Origin: Chloroflexota bacterium
GTDB taxonomy: Bacteria; Chloroflexota; Dehalococcoidia; Lucifugimonadales; Australimonadaceae
Length of the DNA: 64,000 nt
Assembly: GCA_009838965.1 (NCBI GenBank)
Contig: VXQP01000044.1
Coordinates: 2,882 to 66,881, forward strand
Reading direction: 5' to 3'
In this document: piece after piece, positions 5,635 to 52,780 of the stretch
Layout of the letters: the number at the start of each line of letters is the position of its first letter
How positions within the stretch are numbered: position 1 is the first letter of the stretch
The notes under the pieces: model-generated
Seen by the model: only the letters and a program-made list of their open reading frames with translations
The model's database searches: none
Told to the model about the DNA's origin: nothing
Position numbers and translations under genes: made by a program

Positions 5635-8600
5635 GTGTCGTTCACTCATCTTCACGTCCACTCGGAGTACAGCCTGCTCGACGGCCTGAGCCGGATACCG
5701 GCGATGGTGAGCCGTGCCAAAGAACTGGGCATGACGGCCCTCGGCCTCACCGACCACGGCTCGATGTACGGGGTGGTGGACTTCTACTCCGCTTGCAAGG
5801 AAGCGGGCATCAAGCCGGTCATCGGGTGCGAGTTGTACGTTGCGAACGGGAAGCGGACGGACCGCACCTCGGGCGGCAAGGGCCAGAACAACCACCACCT
5901 CACGGTCCTCGCACAGAACAATGAGGGCTACCGGAACCTGATGAAGCTGTCCTCCAGAGCACACCTGGAGGGCTTCTACTACAAGCCTCGCGTAGACCAC
6001 GATCTGCTGGAGGAGCATGCCGACGGCCTGATCGTCTTCTCGGGCTGCCCGAGCTCCGAGATATCGGTTGCCCTGATAAACGGCAACTACGAGGCTGCGA
6101 AGGAGTTGGCCAGGTGGCACAAGGCGATGTTCCCCGCCTTCTACCTGGAGATGCAGCGGCACGAGAACCTCGACTTCCTTACTCCGCTGAACAACGGGCT
6201 GCTGCGGCTCGGGGAGGAGCTGGACATCCCCATCGTCGCGACGAACGACCTGCACTACGTTCAGGAGAGCGACGCCAGTATCCACGACGTGCTGCTCTGC
6301 ATCGGCACGAGTTCCAACATCAGGGACGAGAACCGCTTCCAGTTCTCCGACACGTCGTACTACCTGAAGAGCTCCGACGAGATGCTGGAACTGTTCTCCG
6401 ATCTGCCGGAGGCCGTGACGAACACGCAGGCGATAGCGGATATGACGAACGTGGAGCTCGATTTCTCGACGCTGCGCCTGCCGCGTTACCGGACCCCCGA
6501 TAACGAAGACCCGGACGCCTACCTGCGCAAGCTGTGCTGGCAGGGCTTCGGCGAGCGCTACCCGAACGGGTCGACGGACGCGACGAAGGAGCGGCTGGAG
6601 TACGAGCTGGACGTCATAACGGAGACGCAGTACCCCAACTACTTCCTCGTGGTCTGGGACATCGCGGACTTCGCGCGGCGGGAGGGGATCGTCTTCGGGG
6701 TGCGGGGCAGCGCAGCGTCGTCGCTGGCGCTCTACTGCCTCGGCGTCACCGACCTCGACCCGCTGGACTACGGGCTGGTGTTCGAGCGCTTCCTCAACAT
6801 CGAGCGCAAAGAGATGCCGGACATCGACATGGACTTCCAGGATGACCGGCGCGAGGAGGCGATCCAGTACGTCACGGACAAGTACGGGCGCGACCACGTC
6901 GCACAGATCATCACGTTCGGCACGCTCGGCGCCAAGGCTGCTATACGCGACTCAGGGCGCGTACTGGGGATGACGTACGCCGACGTGGACCGTGTGGCGC
7001 GTCTCGTTCCGCAGCGGCTGGGGATGACGATAGACCTCGCGTTCGAGCAGTCGCCGGAGATGAAGGAGGCGTACGAGCAGGACGAGGAACTGCGGAAGCT
7101 CATCGACACCGCGCGAAGCCTCGAAGGCGTGACGCGTAACGTGAGCACGCATGCCGCAGGGGTCGTCATCTCCGAGGACCCGCTCACCGACCACGTGCCG
7201 CTGCAGCGTCCGACGAAAGGCAACGAGAACAGCGTGGCGATGACGCAGTACGCCATGGAGCCCGTCGCCAAGCTGGGCCTGCTGAAGATGGACTTTCTGG
7301 GACTGATCAACTACTCGATCCTGAGCAACACGATCGAGATGGTGCGCCGGCGCAAGGGGACCCAAGTGCGACTGCAGGAGGTCCCGTTCGACGATGCCAA
7401 GACGTACGAGTTGCTGGGCAGCGGCGAGACGACGGCCCTCTTCCAGCTGGAGAGCCCGGGGATGCGGCGCTACATCAAGGAGTTGCGTCCGGGCACTTTG
7501 GGCGAACTTGCGGCGATGATCGCGCTGTACCGTCCGGGCCCGATGGAGCACATCGGGCGCTACATCGATTCGAAGCACGGGCGGGCGCCTGCCAGTTACC
7601 CCCATCCCGATCTGCAGGAGATCCTGAACGAGACGTACGGGGTGATCGTCTACCAGGACCAGGTGCTGCACATCATGCGGCAGTTCGCGGGCTATTCGCT
7701 CGGCGAAGCGGACGTGGTGCGGAAGGCGATGGGGAAGAAGATCGCGTCGCTGATGCAGCAGGAACGCGAAAGCTTCGTGGTGGGAGCGCGGGAGAAGGGA
7801 TACGACGAACCAACCGCCACCGCGGTCTTCGACCTGATCGAACCGTTCGCGGGGTATGCGTTCAACAAGGCGCACAGCGTGAGCTACGCCGTGGTCGCGT
7901 ACTGGACGGCGTACTTCAAGGCGAACCATCCCGTGGAGTTCATGACGTGCGTCCTGAACGCGTACCAGGGGAACGACCGGATGGGCCCCGCGGTTGCGGA
8001 GTGCGTGCGACTGGGGATACCGGTGCTGCCGCCGGACGTGAACCGGAGCGGCGTGGACTTCAGCGTGGACTGGGCGGAGGATGGCCGGGAAGCCGTACGG
8101 TTCGGCCTCGCGGCTATCAAGAACATCGGGGCGTCCGCAGTGGCGGAGTTGGTGGTTGAGCGCGACGAGAACGGCCCGTTCCAGTCGCTGGAGGACTTCT
8201 GCAGGCGCGCCGGGTCGGAAGCCGCGAACCGGCGCGTGGTGGAAAGTCTGGCGAAGGTGGGCGCGCTTGATGCCTTCGGGTCTCGCGGGCAGCTCACTGC
8301 GAGCGCAGACCACATCGTGCACCTGATGCAGCGCGAAGCGCGCCTGCGCGAGAGCGGCCAGTCCACGATGTTCGACATGTTCGGCGCGTCCGCCCCCACG
8401 CCGCTGGCGGAGATCGAGTTGCTGCCCGCGCCCGAGCCGTCGCTACGGGAACTGGTCGCCTGGGAACGTGAATTGATAGGCGTTGCGCTGGGGCGTCGCG
8501 TGCTGGACCCGGTGAACGCGCCTGCAGGCGCAATCCTCTCCCGCGAGGAAGTGGAGGCGTGTGCGGATGGAGACAAGGTGGTGCTGGCGGGCGAGGTGGC

Positions 8601-10385: not shown

Positions 10386-11564
10386 ATGTCTGAATCAGAA
10401 GGAGACTCGTACAGGATACTGGTGGTTGACGACGAGCCTGACGTAGAGCCGTTGATGTTACAGCGGATGCGGCGCCACATACGGTCCGGGCGCTACTCAT
10501 TCGTCTTCGCCCAGAACGGGATCGAGGCGCTCGACGTGCTCAACAACGATCCGGAGATCGATATGGTGGTCTCGGACATCAACATGCCCAAGATGGATGG
10601 GCTGACGCTGCTGTCCCAGATATCGGAGTTGAACCCTGATCTCCGTGCGGTCATCGTCTCTGCCTACGGAGATATGAAGAACATCCGCACCGCGATGAAC
10701 CGCGGTGCGTTCGACTTCGTTACCAAGCCGCTCGATTTCGATGACCTGCAAGTGACGATAGAACGCACGCTGGAGAACATGAAGGCGTGGAAGGAGGCGC
10801 TCTCCTCCCGTGACAAGCTGGTATCGCTGCAGCGTGAGTTGGACGTTGCAAGCCAGATGCAGCAGTCGATCCTCCCGACACAGTTCCCGCAAGGGGACGA
10901 TTTCGAGGTATTCGGGAGCATGGAACCGGCGCGCAACGTTGGCGGGGACTTCTTCGACGTTGTCCAACTGGATGACGGAGAGATCGGCCTGGCAATCGCG
11001 GACGTGTCGGGCAAGGGCGTACCGGCGGCGCTGTTCATGATGTCCAGCCGTACCCTGCTGAAGGGCTCTGCCATCGGCCTGACAGATCCCGGGAAGGTGC
11101 TCCGGGAGGTAAATAACCTGCTCGCTGAGGACAACGAGTCCGCTATGTTCGTCACGGTGCTGTACGCGGTGTACAACCCCGCGACCGGACACCTCTCCTA
11201 CGCCAACGGGGGCCACAACCTGCCTGTGATCTTCCACGGTGACGGGAGTTCCACTGTGCTCCCTTACACGGACGGGCTCGCATTGGCCGTCCTGTCCGGC
11301 GTCGAGTTTGTGGAAGGTGAACTCACCTTGGCACCGGGCGATACGCTGGTCCTGTACACGGACGGCGTGACAGAGGCTATGGACGCCGTGAATGAAGAGT
11401 TCGGGATGGAGCGCCTGCGGGCGGTGTTCGCGGGAGGCGGGCCACAGGACGCGGAGGGTGCGAACGAGGCAGTGTTCGCGGCTGTTCGAGAGTTCGTAAG
11501 TGGAGCGCCACAGTCGGACGACATCACATGTCTGACGCTGAGGCGTGGGAGATCGCAGGCATGA
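10386..11564 (+). CDS. Response regulator receiver fused to PP2C/SpoIIE phosphatase (RsbU/RsbY-like)
   Basis: 392 aa. REC domain (ILVVDDEPD ... VVSDINMPKMDG ... KP). C-terminal SpoIIE/PP2C motifs (GGDFFDV, IADVSGKGVPAALFM, LYTDGVTEA). Confidence 0.88.
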   Translation: MSESEGDSYRILVVDDEPDVEPLMLQRMRRHIRSGRYSFVFAQNGIEALDVLNNDPEIDMVVSDINMPKMDGLTLLSQISELNPDLRAVIVSAYGDMKNIRTAMNRGAFDFVTKPLDFDDLQVTIERTLENMKAWKEALSSRDKLVSLQRELDVASQMQQSILPTQFPQGDDFEVFGSMEPARNVGGDFFDVVQLDDGEIGLAIADVSGKGVPAALFMMSSRTLLKGSAIGLTDPGKVLREVNNLLAEDNESAMFVTVLYAVYNPATGHLSYANGGHNLPVIFHGDGSSTVLPYTDGLALAVLSGVEFVEGELTLAPGDTLVLYTDGVTEAMDAVNEEFGMERLRAVFAGGGPQDAEGANEAVFAAVREFVSGAPQSDDITCLTLRRGRSQA

Positions 11565-11980
11565 GCAACGGGTTGACCCTGACACTCGAGACTCGTCCCG
11601 AAGAGTTGGAACGGCTGACCGCCGCGGTCGAGACGTTAGCGGAGCAGGACAACTGGCCCGCCGCGCTGACGTTCAGGGTGAACCTCGTCCTGGAAGAGCT
11701 GGTGCTCAACGTAATCAACTACGCCTATGACGAGGACGGGCACCATCTGGACGTTGAGCTTACGTGCAACGAGGAAGACCTGGTCATTGAGATCACGGAC
11801 GAAGGGAGGCCTTTCGATCCGTTGCACGATGCCCCTGAACCGGACATGGAATCGCCGATGGAGGAACGCCGCATAGGGGGATTGGGCGTTTACCTGGTCC
11901 GGACGATGACCTCCGACATGCAATACCGGCGGGAGGACGGCAAGAACCGGATGACCGTTGCCATGTCGAGGGATGGATGA
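11561..11980 (+). CDS. Anti-sigma regulatory factor Ser/Thr kinase (RsbW/SpoIIAB-like, HATPase_c_2)
   Basis: LVLEELVLNVINYAY ... ITDEGRPFDP ... GGLGVYLV are GHKL-ATPase motifs of RsbW-type kinases. Start set at ATG 11561, which forms an ATGA overlap with the upstream stop. The alternative ATG 11528 is in the track. Confidence 0.75.
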   Translation: MSNGLTLTLETRPEELERLTAAVETLAEQDNWPAALTFRVNLVLEELVLNVINYAYDEDGHHLDVELTCNEEDLVIEITDEGRPFDPLHDAPEPDMESPMEERRIGGLGVYLVRTMTSDMQYRREDGKNRMTVAMSRDG

Positions 11981-13278
11981 AACGCGTGCCGCGTTCCGGG
12001 CGTACGCCCGGGTACATCGCAGCACTCTTCATCGTCGCGGGGCTGGTTGGCTGTAACGGCGATGCAACAGAGTTGCCTACCCCTACTCCCCATCAGCAGA
12101 GTGCTACCGCGACGCCGTCGCCGACCCCGGTAGACGCAGGAACGTCCGGCGTGACCGACGATCAGGTGCTGTTCGGGCAGTCCGCTGCATTCAGCGGCCC
12201 GGCTGAGGAACTCGGCACCAACATGCGGCTGGGCATCCGGGCGGCGTTCCATGAAGCGAACCAAGCGGGGGGCGTACACGGGCGCTCACTGGAGTTGATC
12301 TCGCTGGATGACTCCTACGAACCAGAGAAAGCGGTTACGAACACGCTTCAGCTGATAGAGGATGAGCGTGTGTTCATGCTGATGGGCGCAGTGGGGACGC
12401 CTACGTCACGCTCCGCTACCCCGGTGTCCGTATCGGCGGGTGTACCCTATCTCGCACCGTTCACGGGAGCGGAGTTCCTGCGGACCCTTGGGCCGGAGAA
12501 CGTGATCAACGTTCGCGCCTCGTACAACCAGGAGACGGAGGAGATGGTCGAGCGTCTGACCGAGGACCTGGGCATCACGCGGATAGCGGTGATGTACCAG
12601 GACGACTCCTTCGGCCGCGCGGGCTACCAGGGGGCGGTAGAAGCGCTCCGGCGCAGAAACATGTCTCCGGTGGGCATCGGGCTGTATACGCGCAACACAA
12701 CGGCGGTGAAGACCGCGTTGCTGGATATAGAGCGTTCGCTCCCCGAGGCGGTGATCATGGTGGGGGCCTATGAACCGGTGGCAACCTTCATCAGATGGGC
12801 GCGGCATATCGGGATGGACGTGCAGTTCATCAACATCTCCTTCGTAGGCAGCAACGCGCTGGCGCGGGAGCTCGGTCCCGATGGCGCCGGAGTGTTCGTA
12901 ACGCAGGTGGTGCCTTTCCCGAACGATCTGTCGCAACCCGTCGTGCGGGCTTACCGGAGCGCGCTCACGTCGTATGATTCGAGTGCGTTGCCGGGCTTCG
13001 TATCACTCGAAGGATACCTGGCAGGGCGTCTTGTGATAGCAGGGCTGGAAGGTTGCGGCCGTGATCTCACCCGCCAGTGTTTCCTGGATAGCCTGACCAC
13101 TCCCGACATGATCGATCTGGATGGGTTCCGCCTGGGTTACGGAGAAGACGACAACCAGGGCTCGGACACGGTGTTCCTGACCGTGCTCGGGCCTGACGGA
13201 CAGTATTATCCGATCCAGGCACTGGGGGACTTCCAGTTGCTGCAGGAAACCTGGGCGTTGCAGGACGTCGAGCCATGA
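11977..13278 (+). CDS. Periplasmic binding protein (type 1, LivK-like) lipoprotein
   Basis: 433 aa. Lipobox LVGC followed by a Pro/Thr linker, then a Leu/Ile/Val-binding-protein-like fold pattern (VLFGQSAAFSGPAEELG...). ATGA overlaps on both sides. Confidence 0.8.
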   Translation: MKRVPRSGRTPGYIAALFIVAGLVGCNGDATELPTPTPHQQSATATPSPTPVDAGTSGVTDDQVLFGQSAAFSGPAEELGTNMRLGIRAAFHEANQAGGVHGRSLELISLDDSYEPEKAVTNTLQLIEDERVFMLMGAVGTPTSRSATPVSVSAGVPYLAPFTGAEFLRTLGPENVINVRASYNQETEEMVERLTEDLGITRIAVMYQDDSFGRAGYQGAVEALRRRNMSPVGIGLYTRNTTAVKTALLDIERSLPEAVIMVGAYEPVATFIRWARHIGMDVQFINISFVGSNALARELGPDGAGVFVTQVVPFPNDLSQPVVRAYRSALTSYDSSALPGFVSLEGYLAGRLVIAGLEGCGRDLTRQCFLDSLTTPDMIDLDGFRLGYGEDDNQGSDTVFLTVLGPDGQYYPIQALGDFQLLQETWALQDVEP

Positions 13279-22893: not shown

Positions 22894-24162
22894 ATGCGTA
22901 TCTTCCACACTCGTTTCCCAAGCCCCTTTGCCATTGCAGTCCTGCTGCTGTTCACGCTGGCTGCGTGCGGCGAGCCGGGGCCCGGAGTCGTACAGTTCGA
23001 AGCGCGTGCGACTCCTGAAGGACCTACCACTCCGACGCCGACCCCCACGCCCGCGCCTTCTCCGACAGCAACCCCGACACCCGAGCCGACGGCGACCCCT
23101 ACCCCGGCGCCTACCGACACGCCCACGCCGACCCCAACGCACACGCCGACGCCGGACGAGCCTGGGATACTCACGCCGCAACCGGACGTCTCCATCGTCA
23201 TGCAGACGGAGACCGTCATCAGCGCCGGTGACCGTCATACCTGTGTGGTCACGCCGGACGGGACGCCTACCTGCTGGGGGAACAACGATTCAGGACAGGC
23301 GGCACCGATCGGTTTCCTCCCACTCAGGACGATAAGCAGCGGGAACAACCACTCCTGTGGACTTACACTGGAAGGAGCGGCCATCTGCTGGGGCAGCGAT
23401 GCCTTCGGCCAGATCAACGCTCCCACCGATCAGATGTTCCTGGCGCTCAGCAGCGGCGACGATTTCACGTGCGCGCTCACTTTCGACGGCACTCCGGTCT
23501 GCTGGGGAGGTCAGGGGGTCACCCCTCCCGATGGGGAGAAGTTCACCCAGATCAGCAGTGGAGGACGTCATGCGTGCGGACTCCGCCTGGACGGCAGCGC
23601 GGTCTGCTGGGGAGACGACGCGGATGGAAAGCTGAACCCACCGGCGGGGGCGTTCTTCGCTATCGCGAGCGGTGGCGACCACACGTGCGCGCTCAATGCC
23701 CAGGGTAACGCGGTCTGCTGGGGCAGCGACAGCTCCGGTCAGCGGACGAACGCACCGGTCGATGTCGCGTTCCTCTCCATCAGCAGCGGCGGGTCGCACT
23801 CCTGCGGCCTGCGCGGCGACGGGACCGCGTCCTGCTGGGGTGACTGGGGCGGCGCCGACGTCCCGACCGATGCGTTCTTCCAGATCAGCTGCGGGCGCAA
23901 CTATTCCTGTGGGACGGTTGGTGAGGAACAGGTTTGTACAGGTGAAGTGCACACGTGCGGCGTCACCTTTGCGGGCACCGTCGTCTGCTGGGGAGATGAC
24001 AGCGCTGGACAGTCCGCCCCGCCCGCGAGCCTGACGAGTCCGGGGCAACCGGTTGACGGGACGGACGGTGAAGCCACGCCGGAGCCTGGCGGGGGGTTGG
24101 TCGTGGACGGCGAGGTAATACCGCCGCCGCCCGCCATACCGGGCGTTCCGCCTCCGTCCTAG
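22894..24162 (+). CDS. RCC1-repeat (7-bladed beta-propeller) lipoprotein with Pro/Thr linker
   Basis: 422 aa. Lipobox LAAC, about 45-aa TPTPTP-type linker, then seven repeats of the HxC(G/A)L...G...CWG...GQ type. Pro-rich C-terminus. Confidence 0.8.
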   Translation: MRIFHTRFPSPFAIAVLLLFTLAACGEPGPGVVQFEARATPEGPTTPTPTPTPAPSPTATPTPEPTATPTPAPTDTPTPTPTHTPTPDEPGILTPQPDVSIVMQTETVISAGDRHTCVVTPDGTPTCWGNNDSGQAAPIGFLPLRTISSGNNHSCGLTLEGAAICWGSDAFGQINAPTDQMFLALSSGDDFTCALTFDGTPVCWGGQGVTPPDGEKFTQISSGGRHACGLRLDGSAVCWGDDADGKLNPPAGAFFAIASGGDHTCALNAQGNAVCWGSDSSGQRTNAPVDVAFLSISSGGSHSCGLRGDGTASCWGDWGGADVPTDAFFQISCGRNYSCGTVGEEQVCTGEVHTCGVTFAGTVVCWGDDSAGQSAPPASLTSPGQPVDGTDGEATPEPGGGLVVDGEVIPPPPAIPGVPPPS

Positions 24163-45072: not shown

Positions 45073-45190
45073 CCGTCATTCCCGCACCGGCGGGAATCCA
45101 GGGTGCGCGGGCAGCGCACACGGGGCGTGGAGGCGGGTGGAGTATTGTCATGCTGAGCGAAGCGCAGCGGAGTCGAAGTATCTCTCAGGG
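45073..45190 (+). repeat. Repeat cluster R2: modules A + B
   Basis: A = cgtcattcccgcaccggcgggaatccagggtgcgcgggcagcgcac, two tandem hairpins. B = tgtcatgctgagcgaagcgcagcggagtcgaagtatctctcagggg. Near-identical composite at 50081-50197. Confidence 0.85.
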
Positions 45191-46088: not shown

Positions 46089-46641
46089 CGCGCCGACGCT
46101 GCCCGACTACCTGCGGCCCGGCCTCGACCTCGTGTTCGTCGGCATCAACCCCGGAGCGTACTCGGCGTCCGTGGGCAAGTACTTCGCGACGCCGCAGAAC
46201 CGGTTCTGGGCCGCGCTCAACCGCTCCGGCCTGACCGGCGGGCGCGAATGCGGCCCCGGCGACGAGGAATGGCTGTTCGAGCATCGCGCCATCGGCTTTA
46301 CGGACGTGGTCAAGCGCGCAAGCAACAGCGCATCGAGCCTTCGCGCCGCTGACTTCCGCGCGTGGGCGCCGCTGACGCGCGAGAAGCTGCTGGCCGCGTC
46401 GCCGCTCGTCGTCTGCTTCAACGGCATCACCGGCTACAAGTGGTTCCTGCAGTACGCGGAGAGCCGGAAACAGGACGACGTCGCGCTCGGCGAGCAGCAG
46501 GATCGGCTGGGTGCGAGCCGCGTGTTCGTCGCGCCGAACCCGAGCCCGGCGAACGCGTCGTACTCGCTGGACGACATCGCGGGCTGGTACCGCCGCCTCG
46601 GCGAGCTGATCGCCCGCGCCAGGGCAGGGCGGGATGGCTGA
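46081..46641 (+). CDS. mug: G/U mismatch-specific uracil DNA glycosylase
   Basis: 186 aa, the last part of track ORF 45829..46641. VFVGINPG...YFATPQNRFW is the Mug/TDG active-site signature. 8-nt overlap with the upstream gene. Confidence 0.85.
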   Translation: MTDAPTLPDYLRPGLDLVFVGINPGAYSASVGKYFATPQNRFWAALNRSGLTGGRECGPGDEEWLFEHRAIGFTDVVKRASNSASSLRAADFRAWAPLTREKLLAASPLVVCFNGITGYKWFLQYAESRKQDDVALGEQQDRLGASRVFVAPNPSPANASYSLDDIAGWYRRLGELIARARAGRDG

Positions 46642-47236
46642 GGATGCCCCGGCGCGACGGGAGCGCAACCTGCGTCTGTTCGTTGCACTCGCCTTCCCGG
46701 ACGAGGTCCGCACCGAGTTGCGGCGCGTCGCAGGCGAGATGCGGACGTTCACGCCGCACGGCACACGATGGGCGAACGTGGACGGCGTGCACCTGACGCT
46801 GCGGTTCATCGGCAGCACTCCACCCGACGCTGCCCCGGTGCTCGGCGAGGCGGTTGCCCGCGCTGCCGAGGGCATCGCGCCATTTGAATTGTCGCTGGCG
46901 GGTGCAGGCGTCTTTCCGCCGCGCGGCGCACCCCGGGTGCTCTGGGTGGGCGTCGGGGGCGCGGTCGACGCACTGACCGGCCTGCGCGACCGCGTCGAGG
47001 ACGCGCTTGCTGAGGCTGGCGTCCCGAGCGACGACCGCGCATTCTCGCCGCACGTCACGCTCGCGCGGGTCAACACGAGGCTGTCGCGGGACGAGTCGCA
47101 GGCCCTGCGCGAGTCCGCCGCGGCGCTGGACGTTCGCCCCGTGCCCTTCACGGTCGAGGAGGTCGGCCTCTACCACAGCGACCTGCTCCCCACCGGTGCG
47201 GTCTACACCCGCCTGGTGGTTGGTCCCCTCTCCTGA
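46634..47236 (+). CDS. thpR: RNA 2',3'-cyclic phosphodiesterase (2H phosphoesterase, ThpR/LigT)
   Basis: 200 aa. Two HxT motifs (HLTLRF, HVTLAR) in the 2H-superfamily spacing. The last codons and stop lie inside repeat module C. Confidence 0.85.
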   Translation: MAEDAPARRERNLRLFVALAFPDEVRTELRRVAGEMRTFTPHGTRWANVDGVHLTLRFIGSTPPDAAPVLGEAVARAAEGIAPFELSLAGAGVFPPRGAPRVLWVGVGGAVDALTGLRDRVEDALAEAGVPSDDRAFSPHVTLARVNTRLSRDESQALRESAAALDVRPVPFTVEEVGLYHSDLLPTGAVYTRLVVGPLS

Positions 47237-47340
47237 GGGAGAGTGCAACGCGCTTCAGTGCGTGGGTGAGGGCCCTCGGAGGGCGAGGGGTGGGTGCCTG
47301 ATTCCTTCCCCCTTGATGGGGGAAGGTGAGGATGGGGGAG
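47225..47340 (+). repeat. Repeat cluster R3: modules C + D
   Basis: C = cccctctcctgagggagag..cgcgcttcag.gcgtgggtgagggccc. D = ttccttcccccttgatgggggaaggtgaggatggggg. Confidence 0.85.
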
Positions 47341-47452
47341 ATTGGCGACAAGTCGAAATTGTGACACCGGCTGGTTTCGCAGTTGACGACATTGCGGTAA
47401 CCTAATCCCAACAACCGAAGTTCGCCGGAACGGAACGTATGCACGGGGACGA

Positions 47453-47485
47453 GCCCCGGCCTTGAGAAAGGGCCGGGGCTTTTTC
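47453..47485 (+). terminator. Rho-independent terminator
   Basis: GCCCCGGCC-ttgagaaag-GGCCGGGGC (9-bp GC stem) followed by TTTTT. It lies 217 nt after the thpR stop and 43 nt before the protease ATG. Confidence 0.6.
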
Positions 47486-47528
47486 GTGTTCGGGTACCGC
47501 GTCGGCGGGCGCATGAGGAGGCGCAGAG

Positions 47529-48218
47529 ATGGTGTCGTACGAGGTGAGCACAGGGGTGAGCGAGCGCGAACGTTGGGAGCGGGAGCGGCTGCTGGAGTCG
47601 TTGGAGGCGTACCGGCGGGGACTGGCTGACGCGCCGGTCGTCCAGAGGTTCTCGATGTGCCGCGCCGTCGCGCCCAACGAGGACCGCCCGCTGACCGTCG
47701 TGGCGTCGGACGAGTCGGCCGACCGTCTGGGCGACGTGGTGCGCGCTGGCGGCTGGGACTTGGACGCGTACAAGCACAACCCCGTTTTCCTGTGGGCGCA
47801 CGACTACACCCGTACGCCCATCGGTCGCAGTTCATGGGTAGGCGTGGATGGCTCGAAGCTGCTGGCGACGGTGGAGTTCGCCCCCACTGCATTCGCGCAG
47901 GAGGTGGAGCTGCTCTACCGGCAGCGGTTCTTACGCGCTGTAAGCGTCGGCTTCCGCGCCAGGGAATTCTCGTTCCGCAAGGGCCGCGACGGCTCGGTGG
48001 ACGGCGTCGAGTACACGAGGCAGGAGCTGCTGGAGCTGAGCGCAGTGCCCGTGCCCGCGAACCCGCACGCGCTGGCGAAGGCGCTCGAAGGCGGGCTCGA
48101 GACGCCGCGGCTGCGTCCGCTGTTCACGTTCGACCTTCCCGCGTCGTGCATCGCGCCGGAGGACGCCCAGCGCGTCCTCAGCGAACTCCGCCGCCTGCGC
48201 GGCCTCGTGTCCGCATGA
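47529..48218 (+). CDS. HK97-family phage prohead (capsid maturation) serine protease, S78/U35-like
   Basis: 229 aa. NPVFLWAHDYTRTPIG (catalytic His context), FLRAVSVGF (Ser context), ELLELSAVPVPANPHA, all typical of the HK97 gp4 family. SD GAGGAGG. Confidence 0.85.
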   Translation: MVSYEVSTGVSERERWERERLLESLEAYRRGLADAPVVQRFSMCRAVAPNEDRPLTVVASDESADRLGDVVRAGGWDLDAYKHNPVFLWAHDYTRTPIGRSSWVGVDGSKLLATVEFAPTAFAQEVELLYRQRFLRAVSVGFRAREFSFRKGRDGSVDGVEYTRQELLELSAVPVPANPHALAKALEGGLETPRLRPLFTFDLPASCIAPEDAQRVLSELRRLRGLVSA

Positions 48219-48220
48219 AG

Positions 48221-48405
48221 CCCGTCGTTCCTGCGGAGGCACGCGCTTTAGCGCGCAACCTCGCAGCCCATCCCCGTCATTCCCGCGAAGGCGGGAATCC
48301 AGAGGTGCGGGACAGCGGAGCGCACACGGGCGGTGTGGCGTCCCTTGTCCCCGCTCCCCTCGCCCTCTGGGAGAGGGAAACGCGCGTCAGCGCGAGGGTG
48401 AGGGT
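48221..48405 (+). repeat. Repeat cluster R4: modules E-variant + A + G + C
   Basis: The segment cccgtcgttcctgcggaggcacgcgctttagcgcgcaacctcgcagccca is almost identical to 53775-53822. It is followed by an A module (cgtcattcccgcgaaggcgggaatccag...) and a C module (...ctgggagagggaaacgcgcgtcagcgcgagggtgaggg). Confidence 0.85.
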
Positions 48406-48450
48406 TGACAACAAAAAACGGCCCATCGCGGCCGGGAAAGGAGGAGAGCG

Positions 48451-48699
48451 ATGCGGATAGCACAGGTGGTGCGCGTGGCGTTGCAGGCGGCGCGGCTGGT
48501 GGATGTCCTCTGCCGGGTTGCGCCGGATGCCGCCGAGGCGCTGGAGAGCGGAGCGCGGTTGATGCGTGAGTCGGCCCGCGCCGCGCCGGACGGACTGACC
48601 CGCACGGAGCGGGACACGCTGGCGTCGTCGGCGCGCAGGTTCGGCGAGGCGCTCGCGGAAGCGATCGAGGCCGCGCCGGTGAACGAACGGGAGAACTGA
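48451..48699 (+). CDS. Hypothetical small Ala/Arg/Glu-rich helical protein between protease and capsid genes
   Basis: 82-aa ORF with strong SD AAAGGAGGAGAG, nearly identical to the SD before ATG 48719. The stop lies 19 nt before that ATG. The high-GC composition makes a shadow ORF possible. Confidence 0.5.
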   Translation: MRIAQVVRVALQAARLVDVLCRVAPDAAEALESGARLMRESARAAPDGLTRTERDTLASSARRFGEALAEAIEAAPVNEREN

Positions 48700-48768
48700 T
48701 CACACAGAAGGAGGAGAGATGTCTGCGATAGACGAGATGCAGAAGGAGATAGTGGAGACGCGGAGTTC

Positions 48769-50043
48769 GTGCGCGAGCGGCTCGGCCCCGTGACCAGGGA
48801 GCTGACCCTCATGCGCGAGGAGCAGGAGCGGCTCGCGGGCGAGGTGCGCTCCGTGCTGGAGCACGACCGCTCGACGCGGCGTGACGCGCTGCTGGGCCGG
48901 ACCTCGAACGACCGCGTCCGCGTGCGCGGTGGGAAGCTCGACGGCTTCGACCTCGTGGACCTCGCCGTGATGCGGAGCCTGCTCGCGGCGCAGCAGGCCC
49001 GCCCGCAGGACTACGACCCGCGAGCGCTCCGCGCGTGGCAGGAGAGCGTCGCCAGGGCGATGGACTCCACGACCGCGGGCGCGGGCGACGAGTTGGTCCC
49101 GCAGGAGGAGGCCCGCCAGCTCTGGGCGGACGTGAACCTCGAGACGGCGGTCGCGTCGCTTTTCGAGACGGTCACGATGCCGTCCAACCCGTTCGACGTG
49201 CCCCTGCAGCTGGGCGACGTCAACTGGTACCCCGGCACGGCGAACACGGCCACGACCGCCACGGACCTGAAGACCGCCAAGCAGACGCTGACAGCGTACG
49301 AGCTCGTCGGCATGGTGCCGTGGGCGTACGAGTTGGACGAGGACGCCGTCGTCGCGATGATGGCCGAGGTGCGCGGCACGCTGATCCGCAACGCGGCGCA
49401 GGTGCTGGACGACGTGCTCCTGAACGCCGACGTGTCCACGACGGGCAACATCAACCACGACGGCGAGAGTCTCACCGCCTCCGCGGCGGGCAAGGCGCAC
49501 TACCTGGTGGGGTTCGACGGCCTCCTGCACCTGCCGCTGATCGACAACGCGGCGATGCGGAACAACTTCAACGCGAAGCCCACCGTCGACATGTGCAATC
49601 AGCTCCGGCGGATGCTGGGCAAGTACGGCGTGCGCCCGTCCGAACTGGCGTTCATCACGGACGTGGGCACGTACATCGCCATGCAGGCGGTGGAGAGCTT
49701 CCAGACACTGGACAAGCTCGGCCCGCGCGCGACGCTCCTCACCGGGCAGTTGGGTGCGGTCGAGGGCGTCCCCGTCATCGTGTCGGAGCAGCTCCGCCTC
49801 GCCGACTCGGACGGCAAGGTCACGTCGGACGGCAACGTCGCGGACACCGGCCGTCTGCTGCTGGTGAACCGCACGCAGTGGCGCAAGGGCTTCAAGCGCG
49901 AGTTGCTCATCGAGACCGAGCGCGACGTCCAGAAGCGCCAGAACGTCATGGTGGTCAGCATGCGCGTGGCCTTCGCGGAACGCTCCGGCGACCGCGCCAA
50001 CGCGACCCACACCGCGCTGCAGTACAACGTGAAGCACTCGTAG
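48769..50043 (+). CDS. HK97-fold phage major capsid protein
   Basis: 424 aa. N-terminal coiled-coil (delta-domain-like) region, then LVPQEEARQLWADVNLETAVASLFETVTMPSNPFDVP...LTAYELVGMVPWAYELDEDAV...VLDDVLLNAD, typical of the Phage_capsid (HK97 gp5) family. The start is ambiguous: GTG 48769, or ATG 48719 in the adjacent frame (see findings). Confidence 0.88.
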   Translation: MRERLGPVTRELTLMREEQERLAGEVRSVLEHDRSTRRDALLGRTSNDRVRVRGGKLDGFDLVDLAVMRSLLAAQQARPQDYDPRALRAWQESVARAMDSTTAGAGDELVPQEEARQLWADVNLETAVASLFETVTMPSNPFDVPLQLGDVNWYPGTANTATTATDLKTAKQTLTAYELVGMVPWAYELDEDAVVAMMAEVRGTLIRNAAQVLDDVLLNADVSTTGNINHDGESLTASAAGKAHYLVGFDGLLHLPLIDNAAMRNNFNAKPTVDMCNQLRRMLGKYGVRPSELAFITDVGTYIAMQAVESFQTLDKLGPRATLLTGQLGAVEGVPVIVSEQLRLADSDGKVTSDGNVADTGRLLLVNRTQWRKGFKRELLIETERDVQKRQNVMVVSMRVAFAERSGDRANATHTALQYNVKHS

Positions 50044-50057
50044 CCGCATCGTGGTGA

Positions 50058-50197
50058 CCTGCCGGTGCGGGAATAGCGTTCGTCATTCCCGCACCGGCGG
50101 GAATCCAGGGTGCGCGGGCAGCGCACGCGGTGGGGAAGATGTGTGGGGTTGTCATGTTGAGCGGAGCCGGAGGCAGAGTCGAAACATCTCTCGGGGG
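50058..50197 (+). repeat. Repeat cluster R5: modules A (with extra inverted arm) + B
   Basis: The 46-nt stretch cgtcattcccgcaccggcgggaatccagggtgcgcgggcagcgcac is identical to 45076-45121. B variant = ttgtcatgttgagcggagccggaggcagagtcgaaacatctctcggggg. Confidence 0.85.
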
Positions 50198-50215
50198 TCT
50201 GCACGCATCGCGTCC

Positions 50216-51049
50216 CTATCGCCCTACCACCTCCGGTTCGCTGAATGCGAGCCGCTCTGCCATGACGCGCACCGCCTCAGGGTTGCTGTCGATGAGGAGG
50301 TAGCGCCTGCCGTTGCGCGCCGCGGACTCCCCGGTCGTCCCCGACCCCGCGAAGAAGTCCATCACGAGGTCGCCGGGGTCGGAGTGCACCCGCACGATGC
50401 GGTTGAGGATGGCGATGGGCTTCTGCGTCGGGTAGCCGGTGCGCTCGCGCCCGACCGTTGGAACGATGGTCTGCCACCACACGTCTGTGGGCGTCTTCCC
50501 GCGTGCGGCTTTCTCGGCTCCCGCGAGCCCCGGAGCCATGTACGGTACGCGGTCGATCTCGTCGTAGTGGAACGTGTACCGCGCGGGGTCCTTCGCATAC
50601 CAGAGGAGCGTGTCGTGCTTCGCGGGCCAGCGGGACTTCGGCCTCCCGCCGTAGTCGTATGCCCAGATGATCTCGTTCATGAAGCAGTCGCGCCCGAACA
50701 GCGCGTCGAGCAGCACCTTGCAGTAGTGTGCCTCCCGGTAGTCGATGTGCAGGAAGAACGAACCCGTTGGCGAGAGGATGCGGTGCGCCTCCACGAGTCG
50801 TGGCTCGAGGAACGCGAGGAAGTCGTCGAAGATGTCGTCGAACGACTGCGCGCCGAGCCGCACCGTCCGGTAGCGCCTGCCCTGGAACCCCGTGCGGTCG
50901 CCGTGCTCGTCGTCGCGCATCGTGCGCACACGCTCGCGGCGTTGCTCCTTCCCCGTGTTGAAGGGCGGGTCGATGTAGATGAGCGCCGCCGCGCCGTCCT
51001 CGATGGCCGGCAGCACGTCCATGTTGTCGGCGAGCACGATGCGGTTCAC
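50216..51049 (-). CDS. Beta-class DNA methyltransferase (N6-adenine or N4-cytosine), orphan
   Basis: IYIDPPFNTG (motif IV) precedes DFFAGSGTTG (motif I), the permuted order of beta-class amino-MTases. Start set at GTG 51049, because the first 13 codons of the track ORF (to 51088) are repeat module E read in reverse. Confidence 0.85.
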   Translation of the reverse strand: MNRIVLADNMDVLPAIEDGAAALIYIDPPFNTGKEQRRERVRTMRDDEHGDRTGFQGRRYRTVRLGAQSFDDIFDDFLAFLEPRLVEAHRILSPTGSFFLHIDYREAHYCKVLLDALFGRDCFMNEIIWAYDYGGRPKSRWPAKHDTLLWYAKDPARYTFHYDEIDRVPYMAPGLAGAEKAARGKTPTDVWWQTIVPTVGRERTGYPTQKPIAILNRIVRVHSDPGDLVMDFFAGSGTTGESAARNGRRYLLIDSNPEAVRVMAERLAFSEPEVVGR

Positions 51050-51054
51050 GTCAA

Positions 51055-51153
51055 CCTCGTCGTTCCTGCGGAGGCAGGAACCGCGCAACCTGTGCGCTTG
51101 TTTCGCTCATGGTGAGCCTGCGCTTGTTCGCTCATGGTGAGCCTGTCGAACCA
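51055..51153 (+). repeat. Repeat cluster R6: module E + tandemly duplicated module F
   Basis: E = cgtcgttcctgcggaggcaggaacc. F = gcgcttgtt(t)cgctcatggtgagcct twice in tandem (51093-51118, 51119-51143), then gtcgaaccac. Confidence 0.8.
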
Positions 51154-51169
51154 CGCGGCGCTTTCCACC

Positions 51170-51883
51170 TCAGCCTCCCACCAGCGACCGCACGTGCGCG
51201 GCTGCTTCCGTTAGCGATGCCACTACGCGTACGCCGTTGGGTGGGGGTGGCCCCGGCTCACGCTGCACGAGCACGGCCTCGATCCCCGCGCTCCGCGCGC
51301 CCTCCACGTCCGCCGGGATGCTGTCGCCGATATGCACAGCCTCAGCGGGCTGTGCCCTCGCCTGCGCAAGCGCCAGTTGGAAGATGCGTGGGTGCGGCTT
51401 GCTCACCCCTGCGGTGGCAGTGCAGGAGCGCACGGGAAGATACCCGGCGATGCCGAGCCGTTCGAGCAGCCCGTTGAGTTCGAGCCCCATGTTGGAGATG
51501 ACGCCCAGCGTCAGCCCCAGCGAACGCAGGTCGGCGAGTGCCGCTTCTGCGTCGGGGAGAAGCGTCAGCTCGTCCGGCGCACTGCGCACGCGCTGCCAGA
51601 CGCGCGCTGCGACGTCGAGGCTCACGCCCGCCGCGCCCGCGTCTGTCAGCAGCCGGCGCTCGTACTCCGCGAAGAAGGCGTCGCGCTCCGGTTGCGTCCG
51701 CTGCTGCACAGGGCGTTTGGCGTTCTCCTCGTCCATATAGGCGTTCGCCGTGCGGTAGCCCGCGGCGATCGCGGCTTGCTCGATAGCGATGCCCTCCGCG
51801 GCCGCGGCCGCCTGCTGCAGGCTTTCCGCCGTCGGCCAGTCCGCGAGCGTGCCGTAGAAATCGAAAAAGACTGCCCGTATCAT
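51170..51883 (-). CDS. HAD-superfamily hydrolase
   Basis: 237 aa. MIRAVFFDFYGTL (DxD-type motif I variant), ISN (motif II), GDS..D (motif IV). Confidence 0.85.
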   Translation of the reverse strand: MIRAVFFDFYGTLADWPTAESLQQAAAAAEGIAIEQAAIAAGYRTANAYMDEENAKRPVQQRTQPERDAFFAEYERRLLTDAGAAGVSLDVAARVWQRVRSAPDELTLLPDAEAALADLRSLGLTLGVISNMGLELNGLLERLGIAGYLPVRSCTATAGVSKPHPRIFQLALAQARAQPAEAVHIGDSIPADVEGARSAGIEAVLVQREPGPPPPNGVRVVASLTEAAAHVRSLVGG

Positions 51884-52593: not shown

Positions 52594-52600
52594 CGCAAAC

Positions 52601-52780
52601 TCGTCGTTCCTGCGAAGGCAGGAACCTCGCCCCTCACCTCTCCTGAGGGAGAGGTCGGCGCGCTTGCGCAGCGGGTGAGGGCCCTCGGTGTGGTGGGTGG
52701 CGCTCGGCGTAGGGCGTCCCTTGTGGGCGCCCTTGGTGGTTCCTTCCCCATCGAGGGGGAAGGCTGGGATGGGGGTGAAC
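52601..52780 (+). repeat. Repeat cluster R8: modules E + C + G + D
   Basis: tcgtcgttcctgcgaaggcaggaacc / cccctcacctctcctgagggagaggtcggcgcgcttgcgcagcgggtgagggccc / ggcgtcccttgtgggcgcc / ttccttccccatcgagggggaaggctgggatgggggtgaac. Confidence 0.85.

What the first reader, a model, noticed from the sequence alone, without database searches (positions are those of the whole stretch)
47529..50043. Orphan HK97-type prohead protease + small helical ORF + major capsid protein, with no other phage gene in 64 kb
Three co-oriented ORFs with strong SDs sit here. They encode a 229-aa protein with S78/U35 prohead-protease hallmarks, an 82-aa helical ORF, and a 424-aa HK97-fold major capsid protein with a coiled-coil N-terminal (delta-like) region. 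I see no integrase, terminase, portal, connector, tail or lysis genes anywhere in the window. The left neighbour is the amidohydrolase-mug-thpR operon and the right neighbours are a convergent methyltransferase, a HAD hydrolase and comF. GC content and codon style look like the host. A cluster of the host's own intergenic repeat modules sits between the protease and the small ORF, so the module appears to be an old resident. Both large ORFs are nevertheless full length. A portal-less capsid plus maturation protease could in principle assemble closed, proteolytically matured shells. That makes it a candidate domesticated nanocompartment, or the capsid cassette of a satellite or GTA-like element. 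Classical encapsulin operons, as I know them, lack a maturation protease, so a chromosomal protease-processed shell would be unusual.
Basis: partly seen in the sequence, partly recalled or inferred. Interest (0 to 1): 0.78.

Follow-up and report, generated by a model that had tools for sequence, protein, structure and literature searches.

The report
Selected relic of phage head genes
A capsid gene, its maturation protease and a small lineage-specific gene are all that remains of an ancient phage head-building module in a group of marine SAR202 (Dehalococcoidia) bacteria, yet natural selection has kept them intact across at least 15 species, so they probably still do something for the cell.

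Summary
The three ORFs are real: an S78 prohead protease (47529-48218), an 82-aa orphan gene (48451-48699) and an HK97-type major capsid protein. I found no other phage gene in the 64 kb.

One correction matters. Orthologues are 441-447 aa and start at an ATG with a strong Shine-Dalgarno site, here at 48719. This genome has a private 1-nt deletion in codon 15. The 424-aa ORF is therefore a 5'-frameshifted allele, not a full-length gene.

Comparison with 80 Dehalococcoidia/SAR202 species genomes shows the cassette is not a lone insertion:
- **Same site, larger module.** A sister clade holds HTH regulator, TerL, portal, protease, capsid and head-tail adaptor in the same thpR...HAD-comF interval.
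- **Stepwise loss.** The portal is truncated in L036 and lost in L026, where TerL survives. Both are lost in the window clade.
- **Selection.** In 15 species with the reduced cassette, dN/dS is 0.11-0.15, within the range of the flanking host genes. It is 0.086 for the capsid's N-terminal scaffolding region. Capsid dS tracks host dS (rho 0.80).

Best reading: a vertically inherited, domesticated relic that probably still makes protease-matured, portal-less shells. Its cellular role is unknown, and expression and assembly are untested.

The parts
47345..47528 (+). Conserved non-coding leader upstream of the protease. It has invariant boxes (GTGACA, GGTTTCGC, TTGAC, TAACCT), then a terminator-like hairpin, then SD GAGGAGG at 47515-47521.
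   Evidence: It aligns across all 15 species of the window clade, while the sequence further upstream does not. No Rfam family matches. RNAalifold gives almost no covariation because the stem is invariant.
47451..47486 (+). GC-rich 13-bp hairpin plus U-tract (intrinsic-terminator-like), about 45 nt before the protease start codon.
   Evidence: Found by the terminator scan. It is conserved in every species of the window clade. It also lies upstream of the protease, within about 120 nt of its start, in most clade-B loci, which in L023 and L025 is between portal and protease, and in L026. It therefore belongs to the module and is not simply the thpR terminator.
47529..48218 (+). S78 (HK97 gp4-type) prohead maturation protease, 229 aa.
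   Evidence: Pfam PF04586 at 5.9e-9 and PHROG 617/80 at 2e-25 and 4e-19. H91, S139 and E169 are invariant in 64 homologues. dN/dS is 0.11. A protease lies upstream of the capsid in every locus that extends that far.
48219..48450 (.). Spacer filled with host REP/MITE-like hairpin modules: 48217-48251, 48269-48324 and 48356-48387.
   Evidence: Repeat families D1-D3 are shared with 45074, 47224, 50081, 51052, 52596 and 52634. The spacer is only 39-44 nt in L011, L013, L014 and L035, so the modules are a later insertion.
48451..48699 (+). 82-aa lineage-restricted gene (s82), with SD GGAGGAG at 48440-48446.
   Evidence: No Pfam, PHROG or PADLOC family matches. Only 2 representatives exist among 1.84 billion proteins. 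It is present only in the window clade, the 82% clade and L026. dN/dS is 0.15. It shows no similarity to the capsid N-terminus.
48719..48793 (+). Canonical capsid start (ATG 48719, SD core 48710-48714), now a 24-codon stub because of a 1-nt deletion between 48761 and 48762.
   Evidence: Read from the sequence. Orthologues read through in this frame. The same deletion is in L001-L004.
48769..50043 (+). Body of the HK97-type major capsid protein gene. The ORF is 424 aa from GTG 48769; intact orthologues are 441 aa. The helical delta-like N-terminal region covers about residues 1-95.
   Evidence: Pfam PF05065 and PHROG_10. T5 pb8 in the PDB at 1e-14. More than 1151 homologues were found. dN/dS is 0.13 overall, 0.086 for residues 1-95 and 0.153 for the rest.
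50216..51088 (-). Orphan Type II-like N6/N4 DNA methyltransferase, convergent with the capsid gene. Its membership of the relic is possible but unproven.
   Evidence: Pfam N6_N4_Mtase at 3e-44, PHROG_67 at 2e-57 and PADLOC MTase_II at 2e-139. It is syntenic in the whole window clade with dN/dS 0.10. Unrelated methyltransferases sit beside protease-capsid pairs in L007, L061, L079 and L124. In L026 it abuts thpR away from the cassette.

Best explanation
The cassette is the last surviving, selectively maintained core of an ancient HK97-type head-assembly module. That module has been inherited vertically in a clade of SAR202/Dehalococcoidia.

**Shown**
- The same chromosomal interval in a sister clade holds a Cro/C1-type regulator, TerL, portal, hairpin, protease, capsid, c3 and a head-tail adaptor. 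That interval runs from amidohydrolase and thpR to HAD, ComF and FAA hydrolase.
- A graded series of loss exists. The portal is truncated in L036. It is lost in L026, where TerL is kept. Both are lost in the window clade.
- In the reduced clade, the protease, the 82-aa gene and the capsid gene co-diverge with the host. They are under purifying selection within the range of the flanking host genes, and strongest on the capsid's N-terminal scaffolding region.

**Inferred mechanism**
- The capsid protein still self-assembles through its delta-like domain.
- It co-assembles the protease, which then removes that domain. HK97 gp5 and gp4 do this without a portal.
- The result would be closed, DNA-free, matured shells used for a host-level purpose, either sequestration or interference with related phages.
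- The 82-aa protein sits where a scaffold or an encapsulin cargo gene would sit, and may be an internal partner.
- Expression would be gated by the conserved leader and its terminator hairpin.

**This genome**
The capsid gene has a new 1-nt deletion in codon 15. The product either starts at GTG 48769 and lacks 17 residues, or has just been inactivated.
For: - **Family assignments:**
- **Distribution:** 317 loci in species-representative genomes; the best 80 are all Dehalococcoidia/SAR202.
- **Conserved synteny:** mug, thpR, protease, s82, capsid, MTase, HAD, ComF in 16-18 species. Capsid (90-96% identity), protease (84-95%) and s82 (87-98%) are mostly more conserved than thpR (76-85%), HAD (75-95%) and ComF (74-94%).
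- **Orthologous interval with a fuller module in clade B:** TerL, portal (PF04860, 3e-66) and adaptor.
- **Intermediates:** L036 and L026.
- **dN/dS:** 0.11, 0.15 and 0.13 for the three genes against 0.07-0.22 for host flanks. There is no relaxation relative to clade B, where capsid is 0.12 and protease 0.19. The delta region is at 0.086.
- **Co-divergence:** Spearman 0.80 between capsid dS and host dS.
- **No nearby portal:** no close portal lies on window-clade chromosomes, and none is next to the orphan TerL genes.
- **Precedents:** HK97 gp5 plus gp4 assemble and mature without a portal (established knowledge, from memory). Reduced GTA head clusters under purifying selection occur in endosymbionts (PMC9254644).
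Against: - There is no evidence of transcription, protein or particles.
- The window's own capsid allele is frameshifted in the most conserved region.
- A strong terminator-like hairpin sits directly before the operon.
- No cargo enzyme is present.
- In sister clades the same capsid still accompanies portal, TerL and adaptor, so the ancestral role was DNA packaging.
- Portal absence was inferred from contig-length fingerprints among the top 120 hits, not from whole-genome scans.
- Both structure predictions failed (pLDDT 38 and 42).
Confidence: 0.5

Rival explanations
1. It is one locus of a dispersed GTA-like or defective-phage particle system that still packages DNA. The protease and capsid would work with TerL-like genes elsewhere and with an undetected portal and connector.
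For: Intact TerL-like genes (53-56% identical to the TerL next to the cassette in L026) lie on window-clade chromosomes of 2,917,805, 3,235,595, 3,298,779 and 2,552,237 bp. RcGTA genes are also spread over several loci (PMC5026251, listed). Head modules in sister clades are under purifying selection.
Against: The orphan TerL genes stand alone among unrelated host genes, in non-syntenic places, with no portal beside them. No portal with at least 45% identity was seen on those chromosomes, although their capsids and TerLs were found in the same database. Adaptor and tail genes are absent from the locus.
Confidence: 0.13
2. It is an anti-phage interference module. The capsid protein and/or protease do not build shells of their own. 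Instead they co-assemble with, mis-process or act as a decoy for the head proteins of infecting relatives of the ancestral phage.
For: Purifying selection without packaging genes. The cassette sits beside an orphan DNA methyltransferase. Relatives of this capsid occur in 48 IMG/VR contigs, so related elements circulate or once did.
Against: No PADLOC defence family matches any of the three proteins. Stronger constraint on the scaffolding region argues for self-assembly. The closest IMG/VR relatives are only 42-64% identical.
Confidence: 0.12
3. It is a non-functional relic on its way out. The frameshift in this genome would be the first visible step, and the low dN/dS would reflect slow decay or other constraints.
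For: The module has plainly been decaying stepwise in this lineage. The window allele has lost its canonical start. A terminator-like hairpin precedes the operon.
Against: 15 of the 16 other species loci compared keep an intact capsid start, and the sixteenth (L020) is unreadable there. All 15 species in the dN/dS analysis aligned over essentially the full length of all three ORFs. dN/dS of 0.09-0.15 at dS of 0.3-0.46 is incompatible with neutrality. The three genes are mostly more conserved than the flanking host genes, both within the clade and across to clade B, where capsid is 80% identical against 54-61% for thpR, HAD and ComF.
Confidence: 0.1
4. It is the capsid cassette of a mobile phage satellite (cf-PICI-like) that borrows the remaining functions from a helper phage.
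For: Capsid-forming satellites carry their own protease and capsid genes (from memory). One genome holds two copies of the family (L064 and L076 on the same contig).
Against: No integrase, replication or TerS genes occur in the 64 kb. Position and flanks are identical in 16-18 species, and the cassette co-diverges with the host.
Confidence: 0.03

Closest known systems
Phage HK97 gp4 protease / gp5 capsid prohead system (and T5 pb11/pb8)
   Same: An S78 protease gene lies immediately upstream of an HK97-fold capsid gene. The capsid carries an N-terminal helical scaffolding (delta) domain. The catalytic His and Ser are kept. The nearest solved relative is T5 pb8. In HK97 these two proteins alone give matured portal-less proheads (from memory).
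   Different: Here the pair is a fixed chromosomal gene set with no portal, terminase, connector or tail genes at the locus. An extra lineage-specific 82-aa gene lies between the two.
Reduced GTA head clusters in Rickettsiales/Holosporaceae endosymbionts (George et al. 2022, PMC9254644)
   Same: Phage-derived head genes are kept and under purifying selection after tail genes were lost, in symbiotic bacteria. Function is unknown there too, and repurposing, including an encapsulin-like role, has been proposed.
   Different: Those clusters keep terminase and portal and descend from the alphaproteobacterial RcGTA lineage. This one is in Chloroflexota, is unrelated in origin, and is reduced further to protease plus capsid.
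Encapsulin nanocompartments
   Same: An HK97-fold shell protein encoded in the chromosome without packaging genes, with a small co-oriented gene immediately upstream of the shell gene.
   Different: This shell matches Pfam Phage_capsid rather than an encapsulin family. It has a delta-like scaffolding domain and a dedicated maturation protease. The upstream gene is not a recognisable cargo enzyme.
Domesticated defective prophages / Caudovirales-derived loci without att sites or replication genes (e.g. Thaumarchaeota, PMC6563490)
   Same: Fixed position, no integrase or replication genes, and a conserved morphogenetic module that argues against simple decay.
   Different: The thaumarchaeal loci keep a full head-tail set. 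Here a stepwise reduction to two head genes can be followed across sister lineages.

Membership tests
HK97-type tailed-phage head module | Major capsid protein of the HK97/Phage_capsid family | tested here: met
   PF05065 at 4.3e-8, above the cut-off, and PHROG_10. T5 pb8 at 1e-14.
HK97-type tailed-phage head module | S78 prohead protease with catalytic His and Ser, encoded just upstream of the capsid gene | tested here: met
   PF04586. H91 and S139 are invariant in 64 homologues.
HK97-type tailed-phage head module | Portal and large terminase in the same module | tested here: not met
   Both are absent from the window and from all window-clade loci. They are present in sister clade B at the same site.
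Encapsulin | Shell protein belongs to an encapsulin family rather than a phage capsid family | tested here: not met
   The only Pfam match at E<=0.01 is Phage_capsid.
Encapsulin | No scaffolding domain and no maturation protease | tested here: not met
   A protease is adjacent. The N-terminal ~95-110 residues are helical and strongly conserved.
Encapsulin | Adjacent cargo protein with a targeting peptide | tested here: inconclusive
   The 82-aa gene lies immediately upstream of the shell gene, but it has no family and no recognisable enzyme domain.
Gene transfer agent | Vertical inheritance and purifying selection on phage-derived structural genes | tested here: met
Gene transfer agent | Complete head-tail and packaging gene set somewhere in the genome, and production of DNA-carrying particles | not testable with these tools
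   Only +/-10 kb loci could be read. Orphan TerL-like genes were found and no close portal.
Phage satellite (PICI / cf-PICI) | Integrase, att sites, replication module and variable presence at the site | tested here: not met
   None occur in the 64 kb. Synteny is fixed in 16-18 species.
Domesticated defective-prophage remnant | Phage-derived genes at an orthologous site in related species, with dN/dS well below 1 | tested here: met

The most novel reading that the evidence does not exclude
In this SAR202 lineage a phage capsid is part-way to becoming a cellular nanocompartment. The shell would be portal-less and DNA-free. It would still be assembled through its delta domain and matured by its own protease. 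A newly evolved 82-aa protein would serve as internal partner, and expression would be gated by a conserved leader with a terminator. This would be an independent, still traceable route from virus capsid to an encapsulin-like organelle, with the intermediate stages preserved in sister lineages.
Probability: 0.2. Interest if true: 0.85.

Novelty: new variant of a known kind. Interest (0 to 1): 0.62.

Why it matters
Encapsulins are thought to derive from phage capsids, or the reverse, but no intermediate has been described. This family preserves a series of stages in related genomes. It runs from a head module with terminase and portal, through portal loss, to a protease-capsid pair that selection keeps intact.

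That makes two questions directly testable with a two- or three-gene expression construct:
- What does a cell gain from a capsid once DNA packaging is gone?
- Can a protease-matured shell be domesticated?

The result also warns that lone capsid-protease hits in Chloroflexota MAGs and IMG/VR fragments are often fixed chromosomal genes and not prophages.

Tried and rejected
- **Structure prediction.** AlphaFold2 on the capsid gave unusable models twice: a 15-sequence alignment (pLDDT 38.4) and a 70-sequence alignment (pLDDT 42.4). Fold claims therefore rest on sequence profiles alone.
- **Protease against PDB sequences.** No hit.
- **Rfam on 46900-50300.** Only a sub-threshold whalefall-1 match over a repeat module.
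- **Leader structure.** RNAalifold gave essentially no covariation, so no riboswitch or attenuator structure can be claimed.
- **Promoter scan.** The sigma-70 scan found no promoter in 46500-51300.
- **Origin of s82.** It is not a duplicate of the capsid N-terminus (hhalign probability 0.2%). An HMM of it finds nothing in loci outside its own clades.
- **Defence families.** PADLOC has no family for the three proteins or for the orphan TerL.
- **IMG/VR.** Only short fragments of 16 kb or less, 42-64% identical, and no complete phage.
- **Literature.** Searches for SAR202 or Chloroflexi plus GTA, prophage or capsid, and for encapsulin plus prohead protease, found no description of this element.
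- **Frameshift as artefact.** Rejected: the same deletion occurs in four other assemblies.
- **Programmed frameshifting.** Considered unlikely, because there is no slippery or homopolymer run at ACGCGGAG.
Full report
**1. The observation**

The three co-oriented ORFs exist as described: 47529-48218, 48451-48699 and 48769-50043.

- **Protease.** The first ORF matches Pfam Peptidase_S78 (5.9e-9, above the curated cut-off). It also matches PHROG head-protease and head families down to 2e-25.
- **Capsid.** The third ORF matches Pfam Phage_capsid (4.3e-8) and PHROG major head proteins. A profile of its family hits the phage T5 capsid protein in the PDB at 1e-14.
- **Small ORF.** The 82-aa ORF matches no Pfam, PHROG or PADLOC family.
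- **Flanks.** They are amidohydrolase, UDG, LigT/thpR on the left, and a convergent N6_N4 methyltransferase, HAD hydrolase and ComF-like protein on the right.
- **Rest of the window.** I scanned 46 further ORFs with Pfam. 41 gave housekeeping or metabolic domains and five gave no match. tblastn with this family's own TerL, portal, adaptor and tail proteins found nothing in the 64 kb.
- **Repeats.** The intergenic hairpin repeat modules are real and recur around neighbouring genes.

**2. A correction: the capsid gene is frameshifted**

- Every close homologue is 441-447 aa and begins MSAIDEMQKEIVETQEFVRERLGPV.
- The window has that ATG at 48719, behind a GGAGG Shine-Dalgarno core. The A of codon 15 (CAG) is missing between 48761 and 48762.
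- The ATG frame therefore ends at TGA 48791-48793. The long ORF reopens at GTG 48769, which has a poor ribosome-binding context.
- The same deletion is in four other assemblies that encode the identical protein. Fifteen of the 16 other species loci compared have the intact sequence, and L020 is unreadable at that point.
- It is therefore a genuine, young, lineage-private mutation.

**3. Distribution**

- The capsid has more than 1151 homologues. The best 120 are at least 62% identical and many lie on megabase contigs.
- In one-genome-per-species GTDB contigs, 317 loci encode a relative. The best 80 are all Dehalococcoidia, SAR202 or Chloroflexota MAGs.
- I called ORFs in all loci, clustered them and annotated the recurrent clusters.
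- A protease lies upstream of the capsid in every locus that extends that far.

**4. The window clade**

- In 16-18 species (capsid 89-96% identical) the order is fully conserved: mug, thpR, protease, s82, capsid, MTase (convergent), HAD, ComF, FAA hydrolase.
- The phage-derived genes are mostly more conserved than their neighbours:

| Gene | Identity to the window copy |
|---|---|
| capsid | 90-96% |
| protease | 84-95% |
| s82 | 87-98% |
| thpR | 76-85% |
| HAD | 75-95% |
| ComF | 74-94% |

- Pairwise Nei-Gojobori estimates over 15 species are unsaturated, with dS between 0.29 and 0.58:

| Gene | dN/dS |
|---|---|
| protease | 0.11 |
| s82 | 0.15 |
| capsid | 0.13 |
| MTase | 0.10 |
| seven host genes | 0.07-0.22 |

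- Capsid dS correlates with the mean dS of four host genes (Spearman 0.80), which indicates vertical co-divergence.
- The capsid's helical N-terminal region (residues 1-95) has dN/dS 0.086 against 0.153 for the shell body. A scaffolding domain matters only for assembly, so this argues that assembly is still selected.
- Catalytic-motif residues H91 (LWAHD) and S139 (VSVGF), plus E169, are invariant in 64 proteases.

**5. Where the cassette came from**

- **Clade B** (L022-L025, L027, L030; capsid about 80% identical) lies in the same chromosomal interval. Amidohydrolase and thpR are on one side and HAD, ComF and FAA hydrolase on the other.
- There the module is: Cro/C1-type HTH regulator (divergent), TerL, portal (PF04860, 3e-66), DUF7700 (opposite strand), protease, capsid, an inserted alpha/beta hydrolase, c3, and a head-tail adaptor. 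L029 groups with these loci but showed no TerL or portal.
- All of these genes have dN/dS of 0.10-0.19.
- Intermediates exist. L036 keeps TerL but only the C-terminal ~155 residues of the portal. L026 keeps TerL, has no portal, and has s82. The 82% clade and the window clade have neither.
- The cassette is therefore a deletion remnant at an orthologous site. However, the reduction is old, because it predates the split of at least 15 species. It was also not followed by relaxed selection: capsid is 0.13 against 0.12 in clade B, and protease 0.11 against 0.19.
- Deeper clades (about 60% identity) show other subsets: adaptor in 49 of 80 loci, tail terminator in 15, major tail in 7, TerL in 19 and portal in 18. 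These are often bounded directly by host genes such as radA, clpC or an ABC transporter.
- No locus held a complete prophage.

**6. Is it orphan in the genome?**

- I searched with the clade-B portal and used contig lengths as genome fingerprints. No portal with at least 45% identity lay on window-clade chromosomes. The capsids of those same chromosomes were in the same database.
- A search with the L026 TerL did find TerL-like genes (53-56% identity) on four window-clade chromosomes.
- Two of those were inspected. Each stands alone among unrelated host genes, in non-syntenic places, with no portal nearby.
- DNA packaging by this capsid therefore looks unlikely in the window clade.

**7. The small gene and the leader**

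- s82 is confined to the lineages that lost the portal. It has only two representatives among 1.84 billion proteins.
- It sits where phages place a scaffold gene and where encapsulin operons place cargo. That is suggestive only.
- About 180 nt upstream of the protease are conserved in all 15 species. The region has invariant promoter-like boxes and a 13-bp GC hairpin with a U-tract about 45 nt before the start codon.
- The hairpin also precedes the protease, within about 120 nt of its start, in most clade-B loci and in L026. It therefore belongs to the module.
- This points to conditional read-through. No covariation or known RNA family supports a specific mechanism.
- The repeat cluster between protease and s82 is a variable later insertion, with a spacer of 39-475 nt.

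**8. Interpretation**

- **Firm conclusion:** this is a vertically inherited relic of an HK97-type head module, reduced stepwise and kept by purifying selection.
- **Most likely activity (inferred):** continued self-assembly of capsid protein with co-assembled protease into matured, portal-less shells, as HK97 gp5 and gp4 do without a portal. The cellular role is unknown.
- **Rivals:** a dispersed GTA-like particle system, anti-phage interference without shells of its own, plain decay, and a satellite. Their evidence is given in the rival explanations.
- **Closest precedent:** the retention of GTA head genes under purifying selection in endosymbionts (PMC9254644). Here the reduction goes further and the lineage is unrelated.
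- **Encapsulin membership fails:** the shell belongs to a phage capsid family, has a scaffolding domain and has a protease.
- No paper found in six searches describes this element.

**9. Limits**

- Both AlphaFold runs failed, so there is no structural evidence.
- There are no expression data.
- Gene calls in the loci are my own ORF heuristics.
- Portal absence rests on top-120 lists.
- The sponge origin of the window organism is inferred from record names (ENGE20, APA_bin, RHO1_bin, SAR202 bin16), not tested.

Noticed in passing
window 47345-47528; same element in L008-L019, L034, L035; hairpin only in L022-L030: A conserved non-coding leader of about 180 nt lies upstream of the protease. It has invariant boxes (GTGACA, GGTTTCGC, TTGAC, TAACCT) and a strong terminator-like hairpin just before the protease SD. 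The hairpin also lies upstream of the protease, within about 120 nt of its start, in most clade-B loci, which in L023 and L025 is between portal and protease. This may be an antitermination or attenuation switch, or a small RNA gene. It is unresolved.
   Followed up: partly
L136 10001-11362 (OZ220673.1-type chromosome); L137 10001-11620: Solitary TerL-like genes of 453-539 aa stand among ordinary host genes on chromosomes that carry the reduced cassette. The family has more than 2000 homologues, some fused to an HTH domain. Their function without a portal is unexplained.
   Followed up: partly
window 50216-51088 (-); L007 4032-5861; L061 7319-8977; L079 about 7559-8494; L124 7976-9202: DNA methyltransferases of different families recur immediately beside protease-capsid pairs in several clades. 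In L061 one lies between portal and protease. The window's orphan Type II-like methyltransferase may therefore be part of the relic and not a host neighbour.
   Followed up: partly
window 48451-48699: The 82-aa gene is a lineage-restricted orphan, with 2 representatives among 1.84 billion proteins. It appears only in lineages that lost the portal and has dN/dS 0.15.
   Followed up: yes
window 48769-50043: Capsid GC3 is 0.97, the highest of about 49 ORFs called in the window. Its dS is also lower than that of most neighbours. This suggests strong codon or composition constraint.
   Followed up: no
window 45074-45123, 47224-47255, 48217-48387, 50045-50130, 51052-51086, 52596-52665, 61588: Three kinds of short hairpin (REP/MITE-like) modules are scattered through intergenic regions. 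Their translations produce the spurious 'IPAFAGMT / SFLRRQEPR'-type ORFs.
   Followed up: partly
L102, L124 (IMG/VR contigs of about 16 kb): These are compact arrangements. L124 reads c3, adaptor, portal, TerL (a different TerL family), MTase, protease, capsid, c21, c41. L102 shows the same adaptor-then-portal start. The adaptor precedes the portal, which could reflect small circular elements or a different gene order.
   Followed up: partly
L064 and L076 (same contig, CBDFLW010000004.1): One genome carries two copies of the capsid family about 3.5 Mb apart. The family was therefore not always single-copy or immobile.
   Followed up: no
L022-L025, L027, L029, L030 about 11440-12260: An alpha/beta-hydrolase gene (dN/dS 0.08) is inserted between the capsid and the c3/adaptor genes of the fuller module.
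   Followed up: no
window 22894-24162 (+): A 422-aa protein has a Pro/Thr-rich N-terminal linker and seven RCC1 repeats. It was missed by the first ORF filter.
   Followed up: no
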